Positions 51,029-55,872 of a stretch of DNA of 55,872 nt are shown here, in pieces (position 1 is the stretch's first letter; every line of letters starts with the position of its first letter). The notes beneath the pieces were generated by a model. The model searched no databases, was not told the DNA's origin, and saw only the letters and a list, made by a program, of their open reading frames with translations. Source of the stretch: Patescibacteria group bacterium (GTDB taxonomy: Bacteria > Patescibacteriota > Patescibacteriia > Patescibacteriales > JAQTRU01); contig JAQTSG010000001.1 of NCBI GenBank assembly GCA_028711415.1, positions 1-55,872 on the forward strand. The letters are read 5' to 3'. The position numbers and the translations under genes were made by a program.

Positions 51029-52537
51029 TCAACTTTTCAATAATCTTTTAAGGATATCTATAACAATTTTCGGGTTGGCCTTGCCTTTTGTGGCTGACAT
51101 AACTTGCCCGACAAAAAATTGTAGGACATTTTCCTTGCCACGTCTATACTCTCTGGCCTGCTTTTCGTTTTTCGCTATTATAGATTTTACTATCTTTTCT
51201 AACTCGGCCTCATCATCAATCTGCTCTAATCCTAAATCAGCCATAATGTTGGTGGGATCGCCGCCCTTTTTATACATTATTTCCATTATTTTTTGAGCCG
51301 CCGTGGAGTTTATTTTATCTTGGTAAATAAGAGCAACAAGTTCAGCAAAGTTTTCCGGAGTGATTTTTACCTCGGTAATGGATTTTCCGTCTTTGTTAAG
51401 ATGCTTAAATAATTCGCTAAGAAGCCAATTGCCCGTAATCTTGGCCAGCTTATTTTTTTGCCTTTCCCAATCGTCTCCGGTTGAACATATCCAGGCCCGC
51501 AGTTCGGAAATTACTTTTTCCGTGTAGTCGGCTAAGTTTTTATCGCTTACCAAAATTTCCGCCGCGGCTTCGTCAAAATTATATTCGGCTTTAAAACGTT
51601 TCTTTTTCTCCGGCGGCAATTCAATTAATCCGGCTTTTATTTCTTCCAACCATTGCCCGCCAATTTTTATGGGCGGAATATCCGGCTCCGGAAAATAGCG
51701 GTAATCGGAAGAAGTTTCTTTTATTCTTTGCCTTACAGTCTTATTTTTATTTTCGTCCCAGCCCCGCGTTTCCTGGACTAATTTTTCTCCCGTCTCCAGG
51801 GCCTTAATCTGCCTTTTTATTTCATAATCAATAGCTTTTTCAATAGCGCGGAAAGAATTTATGTTTTTTAATTCCGCTTTTGGATTTAGCTTGTATTTGC
51901 CAATCGGTTTTATCTCGCAATTACCTTCGTATTTCCATTTGCCTTTTTCCTGCACGCTCACATTAGCTTCGCAGCGCATCTCGCCTTTTTCCATATCCGC
52001 GTTGGAGATATTTAAATAGCGAAGAATCTGCTGAAAAATCTGGCAGAATTTTTTCGCCTCGGTCGCGTCTTTAATTACCGGTTCGGTTACCATTTCAATT
52101 AAAGGGGTGCCGGCGCGGTTAAAATCAAGCAGAGTATAATTTTTTTCGGTTGGGTGTGTGGACTTTCCCGTATCTTCTTCTAAATGCAGGCGGGTTATTT
52201 TTATATCCCGATCATTAACTTCAAGATGCCCGCCGTAGCAGAAAGGCAGGTCATACTGGGAAATTTGGTAACCCTTGGGCAGGTCCGGGTAAAAATAATT
52301 TTTTCGGTCAAACTTAGAAAGCGTCCTTACTTTGCAGTTTAGAGCCAAACCAGCCAAAATCGCCCATTCTATGGCCTGCTTATTAGGAGTAGGCAGAGTG
52401 CCGGGATGGCCTAAGCAAATCGGGCAAACAGTCGTATTGGGTTTTTCCCCCAAAGAGTCATTATTACAGGAGCAGAACATTTTTGACTTGGTTTTTAGCT
52501 CGGCGTGAATTTCTAAGCCGATAATTACGTCGTACAT
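51029..52537 (-). CDS. gatB: Asp-tRNA(Asn)/Glu-tRNA(Gln) amidotransferase subunit B
   Basis: IGLEIHAEL, CPICLGHPGTLP motifs; C-terminal GatB/YqeY domain. Confidence 0.95.
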   Translation of the reverse strand: MYDVIIGLEIHAELKTKSKMFCSCNNDSLGEKPNTTVCPICLGHPGTLPTPNKQAIEWAILAGLALNCKVRTLSKFDRKNYFYPDLPKGYQISQYDLPFCYGGHLEVNDRDIKITRLHLEEDTGKSTHPTEKNYTLLDFNRAGTPLIEMVTEPVIKDATEAKKFCQIFQQILRYLNISNADMEKGEMRCEANVSVQEKGKWKYEGNCEIKPIGKYKLNPKAELKNINSFRAIEKAIDYEIKRQIKALETGEKLVQETRGWDENKNKTVRQRIKETSSDYRYFPEPDIPPIKIGGQWLEEIKAGLIELPPEKKKRFKAEYNFDEAAAEILVSDKNLADYTEKVISELRAWICSTGDDWERQKNKLAKITGNWLLSELFKHLNKDGKSITEVKITPENFAELVALIYQDKINSTAAQKIMEIMYKKGGDPTNIMADLGLEQIDDEAELEKIVKSIIAKNEKQAREYRRGKENVLQFFVGQVMSATKGKANPKIVIDILKRLLKS

Positions 52538-52650: not shown

Positions 52651-52685
52651 AAAAGCCGCATCAAATTCATAGATGCGGCCTTTTT
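52651..52685. terminator. Bidirectional terminator
   Basis: GCCGCATC-N9-GATGCGGC flanked by A-run and T-run. Confidence 0.75.
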
Positions 52686-52884
52686 AGAGGTGGGGCCAGC
52701 CAAAATCCCAGGCCCGGCTGACCGGAGTTCTGACAACGTAAGTATAAGAAGATTTTTCCCCGCAATCAGGACAAATAGATTCAATGGTAGAAGAAATTTT
52801 ACCATCAGCATGTTCACACCTGATTTTTGCGCTGTCCATTTGCGCTGGAAACGGTTTTTGGCAAGTTTCGCAGAAGATTTTCAT
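52684..52884 (-). CDS. Orphan 66-aa zinc-ribbon protein
   Basis: CETC ... CPDC pairs; GGGAGG 5 nt upstream of the ATG. Confidence 0.55.
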   Translation of the reverse strand: MKIFCETCQKPFPAQMDSAKIRCEHADGKISSTIESICPDCGEKSSYTYVVRTPVSRAWDFGWPHL

Positions 52885-52961: not shown

Positions 52962-54116
52962 CTAAAAAAGTCCGGAACTGCCAAAGCCGTTATCATTCCG
53001 GCTGGTTTGGTCGTCAATTTTTTCTTCTTTTATTTCCAGATTTGGCGCGGGCTGGATTAAAATCTGGGCGATTTTTTGCCCGGGCGCGATATTATAAATG
53101 TCCTCGCTCAAGTTTACCATATTGACTAAAATTTCGCCGCGATAGCCGGAATCAATTACGCCGGCGGTGGTATGAATGCCGGATTTAGCTATGCCGCTTT
53201 TGTCCCAGATTAAACCGGCGTAGCCAGCCGGAATGGCCATTTTAATTCCGGTACCGATAGTTATGCTGTCTCCGGGAAATAGGGAATAATAATCAGCGGA
53301 AAATAAATCAAGCCCGGCATCGCCTTTATGAGCCCTTTGCGGCAGTTTGGCGTTTGATTTTATTTTTTCTATTTTAATTACCAGACCGGCAGCGCTTTCC
53401 GTCTCAAGAGGCAGGAGAGACTTATTATTTTCATTGATCAGTTTTATTACTTCTTGCCAGACTAAATTATGGATTTCTTGGCGCGTCATAATCTGGCCGT
53501 CTCTCGTGCACTCAATTAAAGTGAAGTCAGGAAAAGTTTTGGCGATTTCCAAATAAACCTGCTCGGCCCGCTTTAAATGGTTAATGTCCGCTTCGTGAAG
53601 GTCTCTTTTTGTCCCGTTTATATAATCGCGATGGCCTTTTTGGTCAACCAATTTCTGGGCTAAGCCGGCTTCAACATGAAGAATAATATTTAAATCCGGC
53701 TTAGGAATATTAAAAATTTCGTATTCAAGCTCGTAGAGCCAGGAAAAATAATTTTTTCTTTCTAAGGGGTTAGCGATTTTTCCGCCCTGATGGCCCATAT
53801 TGGCGGTGACGTAGCGGTTAGCGATGACAATTTTACCCGCTTCCAGCCATTTTTTTATTTTAAAACTCGCGTCATAGCGGTCGCAGGCGTAAAAAATTGA
53901 AGCCCGATAAGGCCCGACTTCTTCGGCCGGCCCGTATTCTCCGTTTAAATATTTTTCTACCAAGCCGGCTGACTTTTCGCCGTACTGGGGAAAATCAACC
54001 ATCGCCACCGCCAAGCCCAAGCTTTCCAGCCGAGCCACAAGCATTTGCGTCTGGGTGGCCTTGCCCGAGCCGTCCGTGCCGTCAATGACAATAAATTTGC
54101 CTGTTTTGTTGTTCAT
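52962..54116 (-). CDS. Fusion protein: thymidylate kinase (N-terminal) + dUTP diphosphatase (C-terminal)
   Basis: N-terminal FIVIDGTDGSGKATQ P-loop and DRY motif; C-terminal GDAGLDL, GVIDSGYRGE, GQKIAQ, GFGSSG dUTPase motifs. Confidence 0.85.
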   Translation of the reverse strand: MNNKTGKFIVIDGTDGSGKATQTQMLVARLESLGLAVAMVDFPQYGEKSAGLVEKYLNGEYGPAEEVGPYRASIFYACDRYDASFKIKKWLEAGKIVIANRYVTANMGHQGGKIANPLERKNYFSWLYELEYEIFNIPKPDLNIILHVEAGLAQKLVDQKGHRDYINGTKRDLHEADINHLKRAEQVYLEIAKTFPDFTLIECTRDGQIMTRQEIHNLVWQEVIKLINENNKSLLPLETESAAGLVIKIEKIKSNAKLPQRAHKGDAGLDLFSADYYSLFPGDSITIGTGIKMAIPAGYAGLIWDKSGIAKSGIHTTAGVIDSGYRGEILVNMVNLSEDIYNIAPGQKIAQILIQPAPNLEIKEEKIDDQTSRNDNGFGSSGLF

Positions 54117-54135
54117 AATTATAATATTTAATTCA

Positions 54136-54267
54136 GACCACCCCTAGCCCCTCCTTATCTAAGGAGGGGGAAATATAATAAAACATTTTTTCTAGTTCCC
54201 CTCCTCGGTTGAGGAGGGGTCAGCTCGTCTCGCCCATAGGCGTCAGCCGAGGCGGAGGGTGGTGGGT
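54136..54267 (+). repeat. GC-rich composite element, copy C (about 85 bp nearly identical to copy B, plus a ~36-nt insertion)
   Basis: Direct read; one mismatch to 34219-34300 by eye. Confidence 0.9.
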
Positions 54268-54346
54268 GTAAGGAATGGCACTTTTACTATAATTGGAATT
54301 TTTAGACAAGAAAAGAGTGCTCCTTGCACCCCCTTGTGATTAAATA

Positions 54347-54487
54347 AAATGACAAATGTCAAAATCCAAATGACAAATCAATGACAAATGTCAAAATCCA
54401 AAAATATTTTTGACATTTGGATTTTGCCTGCCTGCCGGCAAGGCAGGGATTTTATTTGACATTTGAGCTTTGACATTTTGGTTTTTT
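54347..54487. repeat. Heptamer-word inverted repeat (TGACAAA/GTCAAAA word) with central CCTGCCTGCCGGCAAGGCAGGG palindrome
   Basis: Direct read. Confidence 0.85.
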
Positions 54488-54494
54488 AGCAGAT

Positions 54495-55130
54495 CTATCT
54501 TCCAAAAATCTTTGCTATCTGCTCTGTTACTTCCGGTATCGCCGGCATGCCGTCTATTTTTTCATAAACGCCTTTATTTTTATAATAATCAAGCAACGGT
54601 TTGGTTTCTTTGTGGTATAGTTTTAATCTTCTTTTAATTGTGGCCGGCCTGTCATCTTCCCTTATCACTAATTTTTGCCCGCACCCATCGCAAGTTTCCT
54701 CGTTTTTCGGCGGGTTGTAAATTAGATGATAAACCTTTTGGCATTTAAGGCAGGTTCTTCTCTGGCTTATCCTTTTTATGGCTTCCTCGTCGCTGATCCA
54801 GACTTCTAAAACCAGGCCTATTTCTTTTACTTTATCTAAAAATTCCGCCTGGGGCAAGTTGCGGGGAAAGCCGTCAAGCACAAAGCCGTTTTTAGCGTCT
54901 TCTTTTTCTAACCTTTGCTTAATAACCTCATTCGTTATCTCGTCCGGCACTAATTCTCCGGTCTTGACTATTTTTTCTATTTTTTTTCCCAAGGCCGTTT
55001 TTCCTTTGATATGCTCCCTAAAAATGTCACCGGTAGAGATATGAGGGACGCCGAGTTTTTGGCTTAAAATATCGGCCTGCGTGCCCTTGCCAGAACCTTG
55101 CGGGCCCATAATGATTATATTTTTTGTCAT
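54495..55130 (-). CDS. adk: Adenylate kinase (zinc-binding LID type)
   Basis: GPQGSGKGTQ P-loop; CLKC...CDGC LID. Confidence 0.95.
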   Translation of the reverse strand: MTKNIIIMGPQGSGKGTQADILSQKLGVPHISTGDIFREHIKGKTALGKKIEKIVKTGELVPDEITNEVIKQRLEKEDAKNGFVLDGFPRNLPQAEFLDKVKEIGLVLEVWISDEEAIKRISQRRTCLKCQKVYHLIYNPPKNEETCDGCGQKLVIREDDRPATIKRRLKLYHKETKPLLDYYKNKGVYEKIDGMPAIPEVTEQIAKIFGR

Positions 55131-55133
55131 AGT

Positions 55134-55685
55134 TTATTTTTTTATTAACTCATCAATCTGCCGGTACAATTCTTCCAGGGTGGAATTATTATTAATGGCC
55201 AGCTGGGCATGCTCCATTACTTTTGGGATTTCTAATTCCGCTTCCCCTTGCTCATCCTTCATAAATTCTTCGTAAGTTTTTTCCTGGTCATCCTGGTTTT
55301 CCGAGCGGGCAATGAGCCGCTGGTATCTTATTTCAGGGTCAGTTTCTATTCTGATCAGTTTAAATCCCGGCAGTTCCTGCAAATATTTTATATCATCAAG
55401 TCTTCTTACCCCGTCAATTACCAGGAGTTTTCCCGGATCGGACTTAATATCATTAGCCATTGCTTTAGCCAATAAGTCTTCACCGAATTTCTGCCTTAGA
55501 CATTCCGACATCGATTGCATATTGAAACGGTTCACTTCTAGGTGCAGTCTCTCTAAGATATCTCTAAGCATAGTGGAGAAGCGATAAGTGTTGGCGTTAT
55601 AATTATTTTTTAAATAGAGGGCGACCGTCCCTTTTCCGGCCGCTATTTTACCGGCCAGGCCGATAATTATTTTTTTGTCAGGCAT
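55134..55685 (-). CDS. P-loop nucleotide/nucleoside kinase-like protein (CoaE/dNMP kinase-like)
   Basis: IGLAGKIAAGKGT Walker A; 183 aa; specificity not assignable. Confidence 0.55.
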   Translation of the reverse strand: MPDKKIIIGLAGKIAAGKGTVALYLKNNYNANTYRFSTMLRDILERLHLEVNRFNMQSMSECLRQKFGEDLLAKAMANDIKSDPGKLLVIDGVRRLDDIKYLQELPGFKLIRIETDPEIRYQRLIARSENQDDQEKTYEEFMKDEQGEAELEIPKVMEHAQLAINNNSTLEELYRQIDELIKK

Positions 55686-55687
55686 AA

Positions 55688-55872
55688 TTAATAAATTACT
55701 TTGTATTTTACCATTATGGCGTTATCGTTTATTTTTTCCATTTCTTTAAGTTCAAGGTTAACATCAAAATCTTTATTAAAAAGAGAAAGGCCGTCGCCGA
55801 ATATCTTCGGTTCTATGGTCAAAATTATTTCAGAAATTAATTTTTTTTCTAAAAATAAAGAATTGATGAAGG
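55688..55872 (-). CDS. C-terminal fragment of a dihydrofolate reductase/RibD_C-family protein (continues beyond window)
   Basis: Manual minus-strand translation: ...LISEIILTIEPKIFGDGLSLFNKDFDVNLELKEMEKINDNAIMVKYKVIY*; not in the ORF track. Confidence 0.45.
   Translation of the reverse strand, partial: FINSLFLEKKLISEIILTIEPKIFGDGLSLFNKDFDVNLELKEMEKINDNAIMVKYKVIY

What the first reader, a model, noticed from the sequence alone, without database searches (positions are those of the whole stretch)
52962..54116. Thymidylate kinase fused to dUTPase in one 384-aa polypeptide
The N-terminal ~215 aa have Tmk features (FIVIDGTDGSGKATQ P-loop, DRY, LID region). After a short linker, the C-terminal ~150 aa carry all five dUTPase motifs (GDAGLDL, WDKSGIAKSG, GVIDSGYRGE, GQKIAQ, GFGSSG). 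The two enzymes act on either side of thymidylate synthase in dTTP synthesis. The gene lies in a string of nucleotide-metabolism genes (DHFR/RibD_C-like fragment, P-loop kinase, adk). I do not know this fusion as a characterised architecture. It may reflect channelling or coordinated uracil exclusion in a salvage-dependent organism.
Basis: partly seen in the sequence, partly recalled or inferred. Interest (0 to 1): 0.6.

Follow-up and report, generated by a model that had tools for sequence, protein, structure and literature searches.

The report
Thymidylate kinase–dUTPase fusion in Patescibacteria
One real gene in a tiny-genome (Patescibacteria) bacterium encodes two dTTP-pathway enzymes, thymidylate kinase and dUTPase, on a single chain; this fusion is common in its lineage, sits unremarked in public databases, and has been described in insect baculoviruses, so it is a solid but fairly ordinary finding.

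Summary
A single 384-aa ORF on the minus strand (52962..54116) carries an N-terminal thymidylate kinase (Tmk, about residues 5-228), a roughly 20-aa disordered linker, and a complete trimeric-type dUTPase (about 247-384) with all five motifs.

It is not an assembly artefact. An independently built contig from the likely source metagenome covers the junction without differences. The same fusion also occurs in about 67 of 201 sampled genomes of the same order (13 of 26 families) and in many metagenome proteins.

It is the only tmk and the only dut in this 1.1-Mb, 97%-complete genome. The genome also has class III ribonucleotide reductase, dCMP deaminase and a canonical ThyA. The two domains therefore catalyse the steps on either side of ThyA in a working dTTP route, not only in salvage.

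The fusion probably arose by loss of the stop codon between adjacent tmk and dut genes. One genome from another class shows exactly that one-stop-codon state.

The architecture is not new. Baculoviruses carry tmk-dut fusions in the same order (PMC4895240). Falkowbacteria homologues have public accessions under generic names.

Earlier readers in this scan flagged the same fusion in other genomes.

The parts
52962..54116 (-). tmk::dut fusion ORF, 384 aa plus stop
   Evidence: ORF listing and translation. Two Pfam domains. It is the sole PF02223 hit and the sole PF00692 hit in the genome.
53433..54104 (-). Thymidylate kinase domain (residues about 5-228), M. tuberculosis-like subtype. It has the P-loop G13-T21 and catalytic-motif position N100-R101-Y102. 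D172 and E175 match the Mtb Mg site.
   Evidence: PDB phmmer hit to 1g3u/4unp, E 3e-20, with alignment. Conservation in 120 homologues. Foldseek match to Mtb Tmk, TM-score on target 0.78.
53379..53432 (-). Inter-domain linker (residues about 229-246), poorly conserved and predicted to be disordered
   Evidence: AlphaFold pLDDT is below 50 at residues 233-243. The stretch matching residues 222-256 ranges from 23 to 92 residues in 120 homologues. A Logan contig spans it without differences.
52965..53378 (-). Trimeric-type dUTPase domain (residues about 247-384) with motifs I-V, including the C-terminal Gly-rich arm
   Evidence: Pfam and NCBIfam scores above cut-off. PDB hits at E 1e-26 to Mtb and FIV dUTPases. 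Motif conservation. Foldseek TM-score on target 0.85-0.92.
54117..54494 (-). 378-nt structured spacer between adk and tmk::dut. It contains TTGACATTTGTCA-type repeats and two GC-rich hairpins.
   Evidence: Sequence. RNA fold z-score -7.6. Repeat copies. Word depth is about 100 times that of the flanks in metagenome contigs.
54495..55130 (-). adenylate kinase (adk), 211 aa
   Evidence: Pfam ADK, E 7.7e-48. It lies between the P-loop kinase and tmk::dut only in the window's own family.
55134..55685 (-). UPF0200/AdkA-like P-loop kinase, 183 aa. It is the conserved upstream partner of tmk across the phylum.
   Evidence: Pfam AAA_18/AAA_17. PDB 3lw7/3h0k, E 8e-13. Synteny in loci L005-L009 and L015-L023. 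It is 60% identical to the N-terminal domain of the triple fusion P0038.
55688..55872 (-). C-terminal fragment of a RibD_C (DHFR-like reductase) gene, cut off by the contig end
   Evidence: Pfam RibD_C, 24.6 bits. Homologues at the same position in L015 and L018.
52684..52884 (-). 66-aa zinc-ribbon-like ORF downstream of the fusion
   Evidence: Weak Pfam Zn_ribbon hits below cut-off. Conserved in L015 and L016 at 51-64% identity.
51029..52537 (-). gatB, 502 aa, a conserved downstream neighbour
   Evidence: Pfam GatB_N and GatB_Yqey. Synteny in L011, L012, L015-L018 and L022.

Best explanation
The gene encodes a bifunctional enzyme.

The C-terminal domain is a standard homotrimeric dUTPase that hydrolyses dUTP to dUMP and PPi. 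The N-terminal domain is an M. tuberculosis-like thymidylate kinase that phosphorylates dTMP to dTDP.

In this organism dUTP is expected to come directly from UTP, because class III ribonucleotide reductase acts on triphosphates. ThyA then turns dUMP into dTMP. The two fused activities are therefore obligatory steps n and n+2 of the same dTTP route and carry equal flux.

The fusion arose when the stop codon between adjacent tmk and dut genes was lost. It was kept because it guarantees 1:1 co-expression and co-localisation in a small genome.

Physically I infer a dUTPase trimer core with three kinase domains hanging from the subunit N-termini on flexible 20-90-residue tethers. That arrangement leaves the C-terminal motif-V arm free to close over the neighbouring active site.

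Shown here: a real ORF, both domains, conserved catalytic residues, sole copies in the genome, pathway context, lineage-wide conservation, and a one-stop-codon unfused state in a genome of another class (taken here as the precursor form; direction not rooted). Inferred: both activities, the oligomeric arrangement, and the selective reason for the fusion.
For: ORF and domains.

dUTPase domain: all five motifs are 95-100% conserved at key residues. These include catalytic D322, Y/F325, Q351, R373 and F378. Lys replaces Arg in motifs II and IV, as in the active FIV enzyme.

Tmk domain: P-loop D15/K19, Y45, Y76, R80, R101, D172 and E175 align with M. tuberculosis D9/K13, Y39, F70, R74, R95, D163 and E166. 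D15, K19, Y45, R80, R101 and D172 are 99-100% conserved in 120 homologues; Y76 is Y or F and E175 is E (87) or Q (33).

Structure: the AlphaFold model has mean pLDDT 86.4 with two well-folded domains. The linker (233-243) has low confidence and pTM is 0.58. Foldseek matches dUTPases at TM 0.85-0.92 and Mtb Tmk at 0.78.

Genome context: it is the only Tmk and the only dUTPase hit in a 96.9%-complete genome. ThyA has the catalytic Cys and the dUMP-specifying Asn ('PFNIAS'), and dCMP deaminase lies directly upstream of it. NrdD is present. No class I/II RNR and no ThyX were found.

Spread: the junction is confirmed by an independently assembled contig. About 67 of about 83 full-length dUTPase hits in 201 genomes of the order lie in open frames of 347-474 aa, across 13 family codes. 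Full-length single matches at 50-85% identity occur in 26 genomes.

Origin: G211, from another class, has tmk-TAG-ATG-dut in the same frame, beside glyA and folD. Adjacent unfused tmk/dut pairs occur in both orders elsewhere in the phylum.
Against: No enzymology, expression data or quaternary structure exists for any bacterial member.

The Tmk domain has Asn instead of Asp at the first position of the DR(Y/H) motif and His instead of Tyr at the Mtb Y103 position. It also falls below both NCBIfam dTMP-kinase equivalog cut-offs (71.8 against 83.25, and 120.6 against 193). Altered kinetics or specificity therefore cannot be excluded.

Tmk enzymes are normally dimers and dUTPases trimers, so the assembly state is unclear.

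A reverse-order fusion (P0133, Dut then Tmk) exists. The 'free C-terminal arm' argument is therefore not absolute.

No NDK was found, so the last step to dTTP is unassigned.
Confidence: 0.85

Rival explanations
1. The fusion builds a substrate-channelling or higher-order 'thymidylate complex'. In this view dUTPase trimers are cross-linked by dimerising Tmk domains, possibly recruit ThyA and the UPF0200-like kinase, and pass dUMP, dTMP and dTDP between sites.
For: Tmk of this subfamily is repeatedly fused to other dTTP-pathway enzymes. Examples are ThyX (a clade of about 90 representative proteins), thymidine kinase (P0131), dUTPase in both orders (P0133), and the UPF0200-like kinase in a triple fusion (P0038). 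The UPF0200-like kinase is the conserved upstream neighbour of tmk. The combination of a dimer-forming and a trimer-forming domain could in principle give hexamers or larger assemblies (inference).
Against: The two fused enzymes do not catalyse consecutive reactions, because ThyA lies between them and is encoded on another contig. The linker is disordered and its length varies from about 23 to 92 residues. pTM 0.58 gives no sign of a fixed domain interface. No interaction data exist.
Confidence: 0.12
2. One of the two domains is catalytically dead or repurposed. The kinase might act on another dNMP or serve as a regulatory nucleotide sensor, or the dUTPase might be a scaffold or signalling module as in some phage dUTPases.
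For: The DRY-to-NRY and Tyr-to-His changes are invariant in the family. NCBIfam Tmk equivalog cut-offs are not reached. Related lineages carry Tmk fused to truncated dUTPase-like domains that lack motif V (P0138, P0127, and g323 genomes whose matches end near residue 355). A second fusion type in the same order has EDY at the DRY position.
Against: In this protein every dUTPase motif is intact and conserved. NRY/NRF also appears to be widespread in stand-alone Tmks of the same subfamily (regex tally, which can also pick up the upstream DRY-like motif). This gene is the only Tmk and the only dUTPase candidate in a genome that has ThyA and must make dTTP.
Confidence: 0.08
3. Assembly or gene-calling artefact: two separate genes were merged by a missed stop or frameshift.
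For: Separate adjacent tmk and dut genes exist elsewhere in the phylum. A few genomes of the order show a stop between the parts, for example G500 and G550.
Against: An independent Logan contig spans the junction with no differences, and no indels were reported. Four relatives in the same genus or family, and dozens in the order, have the same uninterrupted frame. The top 120 database homologues all carry both domains, on contigs of up to 400 kb.
Confidence: 0.01

Closest known systems
Baculovirus tmk-dut fusion genes (PeluSNPV pelu112, ErelGV erel005, OpMNPV op031; PMC4895240)
   Same: The domain order is the same: Tmk at the N-terminus and trimeric dUTPase with five motifs at the C-terminus. 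Both active sites are predicted to be intact. The authors' homology model likewise has the N-termini of the dUTPase trimer projecting outward to carry the kinase.
   Different: They are viral auxiliary genes that the authors judged to have been acquired independently several times. Here the gene is a chromosomal, sole-copy housekeeping gene of a bacterial lineage. Sequence relatedness to the viral fusions was not tested. No tailed-phage record in the phage collection searched holds a full-length match.
Uncharacterised Tmk-dUTPase proteins of Candidatus Falkowbacteria / Patescibacteria MAGs (e.g. PIX10975.1, PIV50455.1, MDD5290866.1, UniRef100_A0A2M7DL07)
   Same: Same family, with 63-87% identity over the full length and the same two Pfam domains.
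   Different: None of substance. The window's protein is a new sequence in this family. The database names ('dUTP diphosphatase', 'dTMP kinase', 'hypothetical protein') hide the bifunctional architecture.
Mycobacterium tuberculosis thymidylate kinase (PDB 1g3u) and stand-alone trimeric dUTPases (Mtb 1six, FIV 1dut)
   Same: These are the best solved relatives of each half. Substrate-binding and catalytic residues are shared, and so are the folds.
   Different: They are separate proteins. The window's kinase has N100 for D94, H109 for Y103 and A20 for R14. Its dUTPase has the retrovirus-like Lys in motifs II and IV.
Other kinase fusions with dUTPase/DCD-superfamily domains (anti-phage dCTP deaminase with N-terminal kinase, NF041025; DCD plus guanylate-kinase clusters)
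   Same: A P-loop nucleotide kinase sits N-terminal to a domain of the dUTPase/Dcd fold.
   Different: Those carry a dCTP-deaminase-type domain and work in defence by depleting dCTP. Here the C-terminal domain scores as a true dUTPase (99 bits against 38 bits for DCD) and the kinase is a Tmk.

Membership tests
Trimeric dUTPase (Pfam PF00692; NCBIfam TIGR00576 / NF001862) | Profile score above the curated cut-offs | tested here: met
   Pfam 99.4 bits against 22. TIGR00576 117 against 102.55. NF001862 117 against 103.
Trimeric dUTPase (Pfam PF00692; NCBIfam TIGR00576 / NF001862) | Five conserved motifs, including the catalytic Asp of motif III and the Gly-rich C-terminal motif V | tested here: met
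   Motifs lie at 265-271, 304-313, 319-328, 346-351 and 373-382. D322, R326, G327, Q351, R373, F378 and G379 are 92-100% conserved in 120 homologues.
Trimeric dUTPase (Pfam PF00692; NCBIfam TIGR00576 / NF001862) | Jelly-roll beta fold of solved dUTPases | tested here: met
   Foldseek E about 1e-14, TM-score on target 0.85-0.92 to the human, Mtb, H. pylori and E. histolytica enzymes.
Trimeric dUTPase (Pfam PF00692; NCBIfam TIGR00576 / NF001862) | Homotrimer with active sites shared between subunits; dUTP-specific hydrolysis | not testable with these tools
   Needs biochemistry or a multimer structure.
Thymidylate kinase (Pfam PF02223; NCBIfam TIGR00041 / NF005923) | Profile score above the curated cut-offs | tested here: inconclusive
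   The Pfam cut-off is passed (73.4 against 27). Both NCBIfam equivalog cut-offs are missed (71.8 against 83.25, and 120.6 against 193).
Thymidylate kinase (Pfam PF02223; NCBIfam TIGR00041 / NF005923) | P-loop GxxxxGK(S/T) with the Asp that contacts the dTMP sugar | tested here: met
   G13-T-D15-G-S-G-K19-A-T21 aligns with Mtb G-V-D9-G-A-G-K13-R-T. D and K are present in 119 of 120 homologues.
Thymidylate kinase (Pfam PF02223; NCBIfam TIGR00041 / NF005923) | DR(Y/H/F) motif | tested here: not met
   The motif reads N100-R101-Y102. The Arg and Tyr are kept, and the Asp is replaced by Asn in 120 of 120 homologues. A regex tally suggests NR(Y/F) is also common in stand-alone Tmks of the same subfamily, though the pattern also matches the upstream DRY-like motif.
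Thymidylate kinase (Pfam PF02223; NCBIfam TIGR00041 / NF005923) | dTMP-binding residues (Mtb Y39, F70, R74) and LID/Mg-site residues (Mtb R160, D163, E166) | tested here: met
   Y45, Y76, R80, R171, D172 and E175 align with these positions and are conserved.
Thymidylate kinase (Pfam PF02223; NCBIfam TIGR00041 / NF005923) | dTMP-specific phosphotransfer activity | not testable with these tools
   Indirect support only: it is the sole Tmk-family hit in a 96.9%-complete genome that has ThyA.
Tmk-dUTPase fusion architecture (as in baculovirus pelu112) | One uninterrupted reading frame with Tmk N-terminal to dUTPase | tested here: met
   Conserved in relatives.
Tmk-dUTPase fusion architecture (as in baculovirus pelu112) | Common descent with the viral fusions | not tested
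   No baculovirus sequence was compared here. Independent origin is likely, because the bacterial fusion can be traced to adjacent bacterial tmk and dut genes.

The most novel reading that the evidence does not exclude
The fusion may be one visible piece of a hard-wired dTTP-synthesis assembly in Patescibacteria. In this reading Tmk acts as a hub that lineages have fused in turn to dUTPase (both orders), ThyX, thymidine kinase and a UPF0200/AdkA-like kinase. The dimer-plus-trimer geometry would give defined higher-order particles. The conserved UPF0200-like kinase directly upstream would be the missing dTDP-to-dTTP (NDK-replacing) or dUMP/dCMP-handling kinase.
Probability: 0.15. Interest if true: 0.55.

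Novelty: new member of a known kind. Interest (0 to 1): 0.3.

Why it matters
The finding gives a clean Rosetta-stone link between dUTP sanitation and dTMP phosphorylation. Together with the sister fusions (Tmk-ThyX, Tmk-TK, UPF0200-kinase-Tmk-Dut), it shows how ultra-small genomes consolidate the dTTP branch.

Three practical consequences follow:
- Automatic annotation currently names these proteins after only one of their two functions, which distorts metabolic reconstructions of Patescibacteria. tmk or dut can appear to be 'missing'.
- The fusion nominates the uncharacterised UPF0200-like kinase as a dTTP-pathway enzyme.
- The protein is a natural dimer-domain plus trimer-domain fusion whose assembly state would be simple to determine.

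None of this overturns current understanding. The architecture has precedent in baculoviruses and the family is already in the databases.

Tried and rejected
- **Assembly or frameshift artefact: rejected.** A Logan contig spans the junction and the frame is conserved in relatives.
- **Alternative genetic code: not needed.** The frame is open under table 11.
- **C-terminal domain as a dCTP deaminase: rejected.** DCD scores 38 bits against 99 for dUTPase, and motif V is present.
- **Second tmk or dut elsewhere in the genome: none found**.
- **Organism lacks thymidylate synthase, so the enzymes serve pure salvage: rejected.** ThyA is present on contig C22.
- **ThyA-like enzyme methylates cytosine nucleotides.** This was a lead from an earlier scan note on another genome. 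It is rejected for this genome, because the dUMP-specifying Asn ('PFNIAS') and the catalytic Cys are present.
- **Phage origin or a phage counterpart: none found.** No phage record covers 80% or more of the query.
- **Rfam and tRNA scans of 50-55.9 kb (Rfam) / 48-55.9 kb (tRNA):** nothing above noise.
- **Promoter and terminator scan:** not informative.
- **Literature search for the fusion in CPR/Patescibacteria:** nothing in the held library.
- **First Atlas call failed** and was repeated successfully.
- **Single origin of the fusion: not supported as stated.** 28 of 30 fused representatives fall in one group of 32 rows, which has only 85% SH-aLRT support. Well-supported branches force at least 4 changes, and one reverse-order fusion exists.
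Full report
**1. Observation**

The coordinates 52962..54116 delimit an ORF on the minus strand. It has an ATG start, 384 codons and a stop. The plus-strand reading is riddled with stops.

Pfam places Thymidylate_kin at residues 11-197 (E 2.6e-20) and dUTPase at 255-382 (E 1.7e-28). A weaker overlapping DCD hit is expected for the shared fold. NCBIfam's dUTPase models are passed. Its two dTMP-kinase equivalog models are hit but fall below their cut-offs. That explains why public pipelines call homologues just 'dUTP diphosphatase'.

**2. Not an artefact**

Run X1, a landfill metagenome and probably the source sample, holds 95% of the sampled words. A 903-nt contig from it, built by a different assembler, covers 53264-54166 with no differences or gaps. 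That stretch includes the whole linker and the kinase domain. None of the four runs shows an indel.

The stronger argument is conservation. The top 120 hits of the 5.8-billion-protein search all carry both Pfam domains. They are 370-460 aa long (two reach about 600 aa), 54-88% identical, and sit on contigs of up to 400 kb.

**3. The two halves**

*dUTPase.* The best solved relatives are the M. tuberculosis and FIV dUTPases (E about 1e-26). In an alignment of 120 homologues the catalytic Asp (D322), R326, G327, Q351, R373 and the motif-V Phe/Gly/Ser residues are 92-100% conserved. Y325 is Tyr or Phe. Motifs II and IV carry Lys where most dUTPases have Arg, as does the FIV enzyme in the alignment.

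*Kinase.* The best solved relative is M. tuberculosis Tmk (E 3e-20). The following residues align:

| Window protein | M. tuberculosis Tmk |
|---|---|
| D15 / K19 | D9 / K13 |
| Y45 | Y39 |
| Y76 | F70 |
| R80 | R74 |
| R101 | R95 |
| R171 / D172 / E175 | R160 / D163 / E166 |

The catalytic and substrate-binding positions among them (D15, K19, Y45, R80, R101, D172) are 99-100% conserved; Y76 is Y or F, R171 is Arg in 89 of 120 and E175 is E (87) or Q (33).

There are three differences from the Mtb enzyme:
- N100 replaces D94 of the DRY motif. The Asn is invariant in 120 of 120 homologues.
- H109 replaces Y103.
- A20 replaces R14.

A regex tally suggests NR(Y/F) is also common in stand-alone Tmks of the same subfamily (the pattern also catches the upstream motif), so it looks like a subfamily trait rather than a sign of decay.

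*Model.* An AlphaFold model built on a 60-sequence alignment has mean pLDDT 86.4. Confidence is low only at the termini, the LID (163-169) and the linker (233-243). pTM is 0.58, which is consistent with two domains that have no fixed mutual orientation. Foldseek recovers dUTPases (TM on target 0.85-0.92) and Mtb Tmk (0.78).

**4. Genome context**

The window is contig 9 of a 1.10-Mb, 68-contig genome that is 96.9% complete. Its size and its relatives mark it as Patescibacteria.

| Gene or family | Result |
|---|---|
| Tmk and dUTPase | The fusion is the only hit for each |
| ThyA | Present, with the catalytic Cys and the dUMP-specifying Asn |
| dCMP deaminase | Present, directly upstream of ThyA |
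| Class III RNR (NrdD) | Present, split across two contig ends |
| ThyX, class I/II RNR, NDK | Not found |

Class III reductases act on nucleoside triphosphates (established knowledge). UTP would therefore give dUTP directly, and dUTPase would be a biosynthetic step as well as a sanitising one. The inferred route is UTP, dUTP (NrdD), dUMP (Dut domain), dTMP (ThyA), dTDP (Tmk domain). The organism is thus not merely 'salvage-dependent' for thymidylate.

**5. Spread and origin**

*Across the phylum.* In 400 genomes sampled across the phylum, none of them from the window's own order, tmk and dut are almost always separate. They are often adjacent, in either order. G154 in that sample is flagged as unpublished. 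It only adds one to the tallies, and no specific claim rests on it.

G211, from another class, has tmk, a single TAG, then ATG-dut in the same frame. It lies between glyA and folD. That is the state one stop codon away from a fusion.

*Within the window's order.* In the 201 sampled genomes, about 83 have a full-length dUTPase hit. About 67 of those hits lie in open frames of 347-474 aa, across 13 of 26 family codes. Twenty-six genomes give a single full-length match to the query at 50-85% identity. Many others give two matches in one frame because their linkers are longer.

Atlas clusters and named NCBI entries identify the lineage as Candidatus Falkowbacteria or a close relative.

*Tree of kinase domains.* A quick maximum-likelihood tree puts 28 of 30 fused representatives in one group of 32 rows, with 85% SH-aLRT support, which is not strong. 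Two further fused proteins and one reverse-order fusion (P0133, Dut-Tmk) lie outside it. Well-supported branches force at least four changes. The best reading is one main origin plus a few independent events or fissions.

**6. Variants seen on the way**

- Some lineages carry Tmk fused to a truncated dUTPase-like domain without motif V. Examples are P0138, P0127 and genus g323, where matches end near residue 355.
- In 20 of 20 further long frames examined from six families of the order, an orthologous dUTPase is preceded by a different kinase. It is eukaryote-like, with best PDB hits to Plasmodium and human Tmk. In the six sequences inspected its P-loop reads G-I/V-N-N-L-G-K and it has E-D-Y at the DRY position. 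In 3 of 5 such genomes it is the only Tmk-family hit.
- The closest non-dUTPase relatives of the kinase form a large, well-supported clade of Tmk-ThyX fusions of 500-780 aa. A Tmk-thymidine-kinase fusion also exists.
- P0038 is a triple fusion whose first domain is 60% identical to the window's upstream P-loop kinase.
- That kinase (UPF0200/AdkA-like; PDB 3lw7 and 3h0k, E 8e-13) lies directly upstream of tmk or tmk::dut across the phylum. In the window's own family adk has been inserted between them.

**7. Comparison with what is known**

Full-text searches found no paper describing the fusion in bacteria.

A 2016 study describes tmk-dut fusions in the same order in three baculoviruses. It models both halves as active and shows that inserting the fusion into AcMNPV speeds viral DNA replication (PMC4895240). 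No tailed-phage record in the collection searched carries a full-length match.

Public bacterial homologues carry the names 'hypothetical protein', 'Thymidylate kinase' or 'dUTP diphosphatase'.

Earlier first-stage readers of this scan flagged the same fusion in other genomes, and also the truncated variant. Those notes are unchecked, and I used them only as leads.

**8. Verdict**

The ORF is a real, conserved, almost certainly bifunctional Tmk-dUTPase. It most likely came from read-through of adjacent genes. It was retained for stoichiometric co-expression of two equal-flux steps of dTTP synthesis, on a flexible tether that leaves the dUTPase C-terminal arm free.

Channelling or a higher-order complex is possible but unsupported.

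Novelty is low to moderate. It is a new member of an architecture already in the literature for viruses and in the databases for bacteria. The more interesting leads are peripheral: the family of Tmk-centred fusions and the syntenic UPF0200-like kinase.

Noticed in passing
window 55134-55685 (-); loci L005-L009, L015-L023; protein P0038: A UPF0200/AdkA-like P-loop kinase (PDB 3lw7/3h0k relatives) lies directly upstream of tmk or tmk::dut across the phylum. In P0038 it is fused to Tmk-dUTPase as a 606-aa triple fusion, and that domain is 60% identical to the window's copy. No NDK was found in the genome, so this kinase is a candidate for an unassigned step of dTTP synthesis.
   Followed up: partly
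proteins P0146, P0150, P0169, P0197 and about 90 other representatives: A large, well-supported sister clade consists of Tmk fused to ThyX (Thy1) domains, at 500-780 aa. P0131 is a Tmk-thymidine kinase fusion. An Atlas cluster shows Tmk plus nucleoside deoxyribosyltransferase. Tmk appears to be a recurrent fusion hub in Patescibacteria.
   Followed up: partly
loci L027-L046 (e.g. L037:657-1790:+, L042:92-1315:-): Other families of the same order have an orthologous dUTPase fused to a different, eukaryote-like Tmk subtype. Its P-loop reads G-I-N-N-L-G-K and it has E-D-Y where DRY should be, so the motif Arg is lost. In 3 of 5 genomes checked it is the only Tmk-family hit.
   Followed up: partly
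genomes G402, G458, G495, G541, G573 (order sample); proteins P0138, P0127, P0129: Here Tmk is fused to a truncated or degenerate dUTPase-like domain that ends before motif V. These genomes often also carry a separate protein of about 185-225 aa that weakly matches the central part of the dUTPase profile and is probably Dcd-like (family not checked).
   Followed up: no
L004 (G211:C5), 1471-2592: tmk (231 aa) and dut (140 aa) are separated only by TAG followed directly by ATG, in the same frame. They are flanked by glyA (SHMT) and folD. This is a one-codon-from-fusion state in a folate/thymidylate neighbourhood.
   Followed up: yes
window 54117-54494: The 378-nt adk / tmk::dut spacer is strongly structured (RNA fold z -7.6). 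It has TTGACATTTGTCA-type inverted repeats and two similar GC-rich hairpins (CCCCTCCTC...GAGGAGGGG). The 54345-54400 part has about 100 times the contig word depth of its flanks in landfill and sediment metagenomes. A few related copies occur elsewhere in the genome (C15, C29, C51).
   Followed up: partly
G000 contigs C50:9-1037 and C18:4-1004: The class III ribonucleotide reductase gene (nrdD) is split across two contig ends. No class I/II RNR, ThyX or NDK was detected in the 96.9%-complete genome.
   Followed up: no
genomes G519, G484, G544 (family code f160): These larger genomes (1.6-1.8 Mb) carry both a Tmk-dUTPase fusion and a second, stand-alone Tmk (about 258-272 aa; 63%, 57% and 47% identical to the query in G519, G484 and G544) a few hundred bases away on the same contig.
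   Followed up: no
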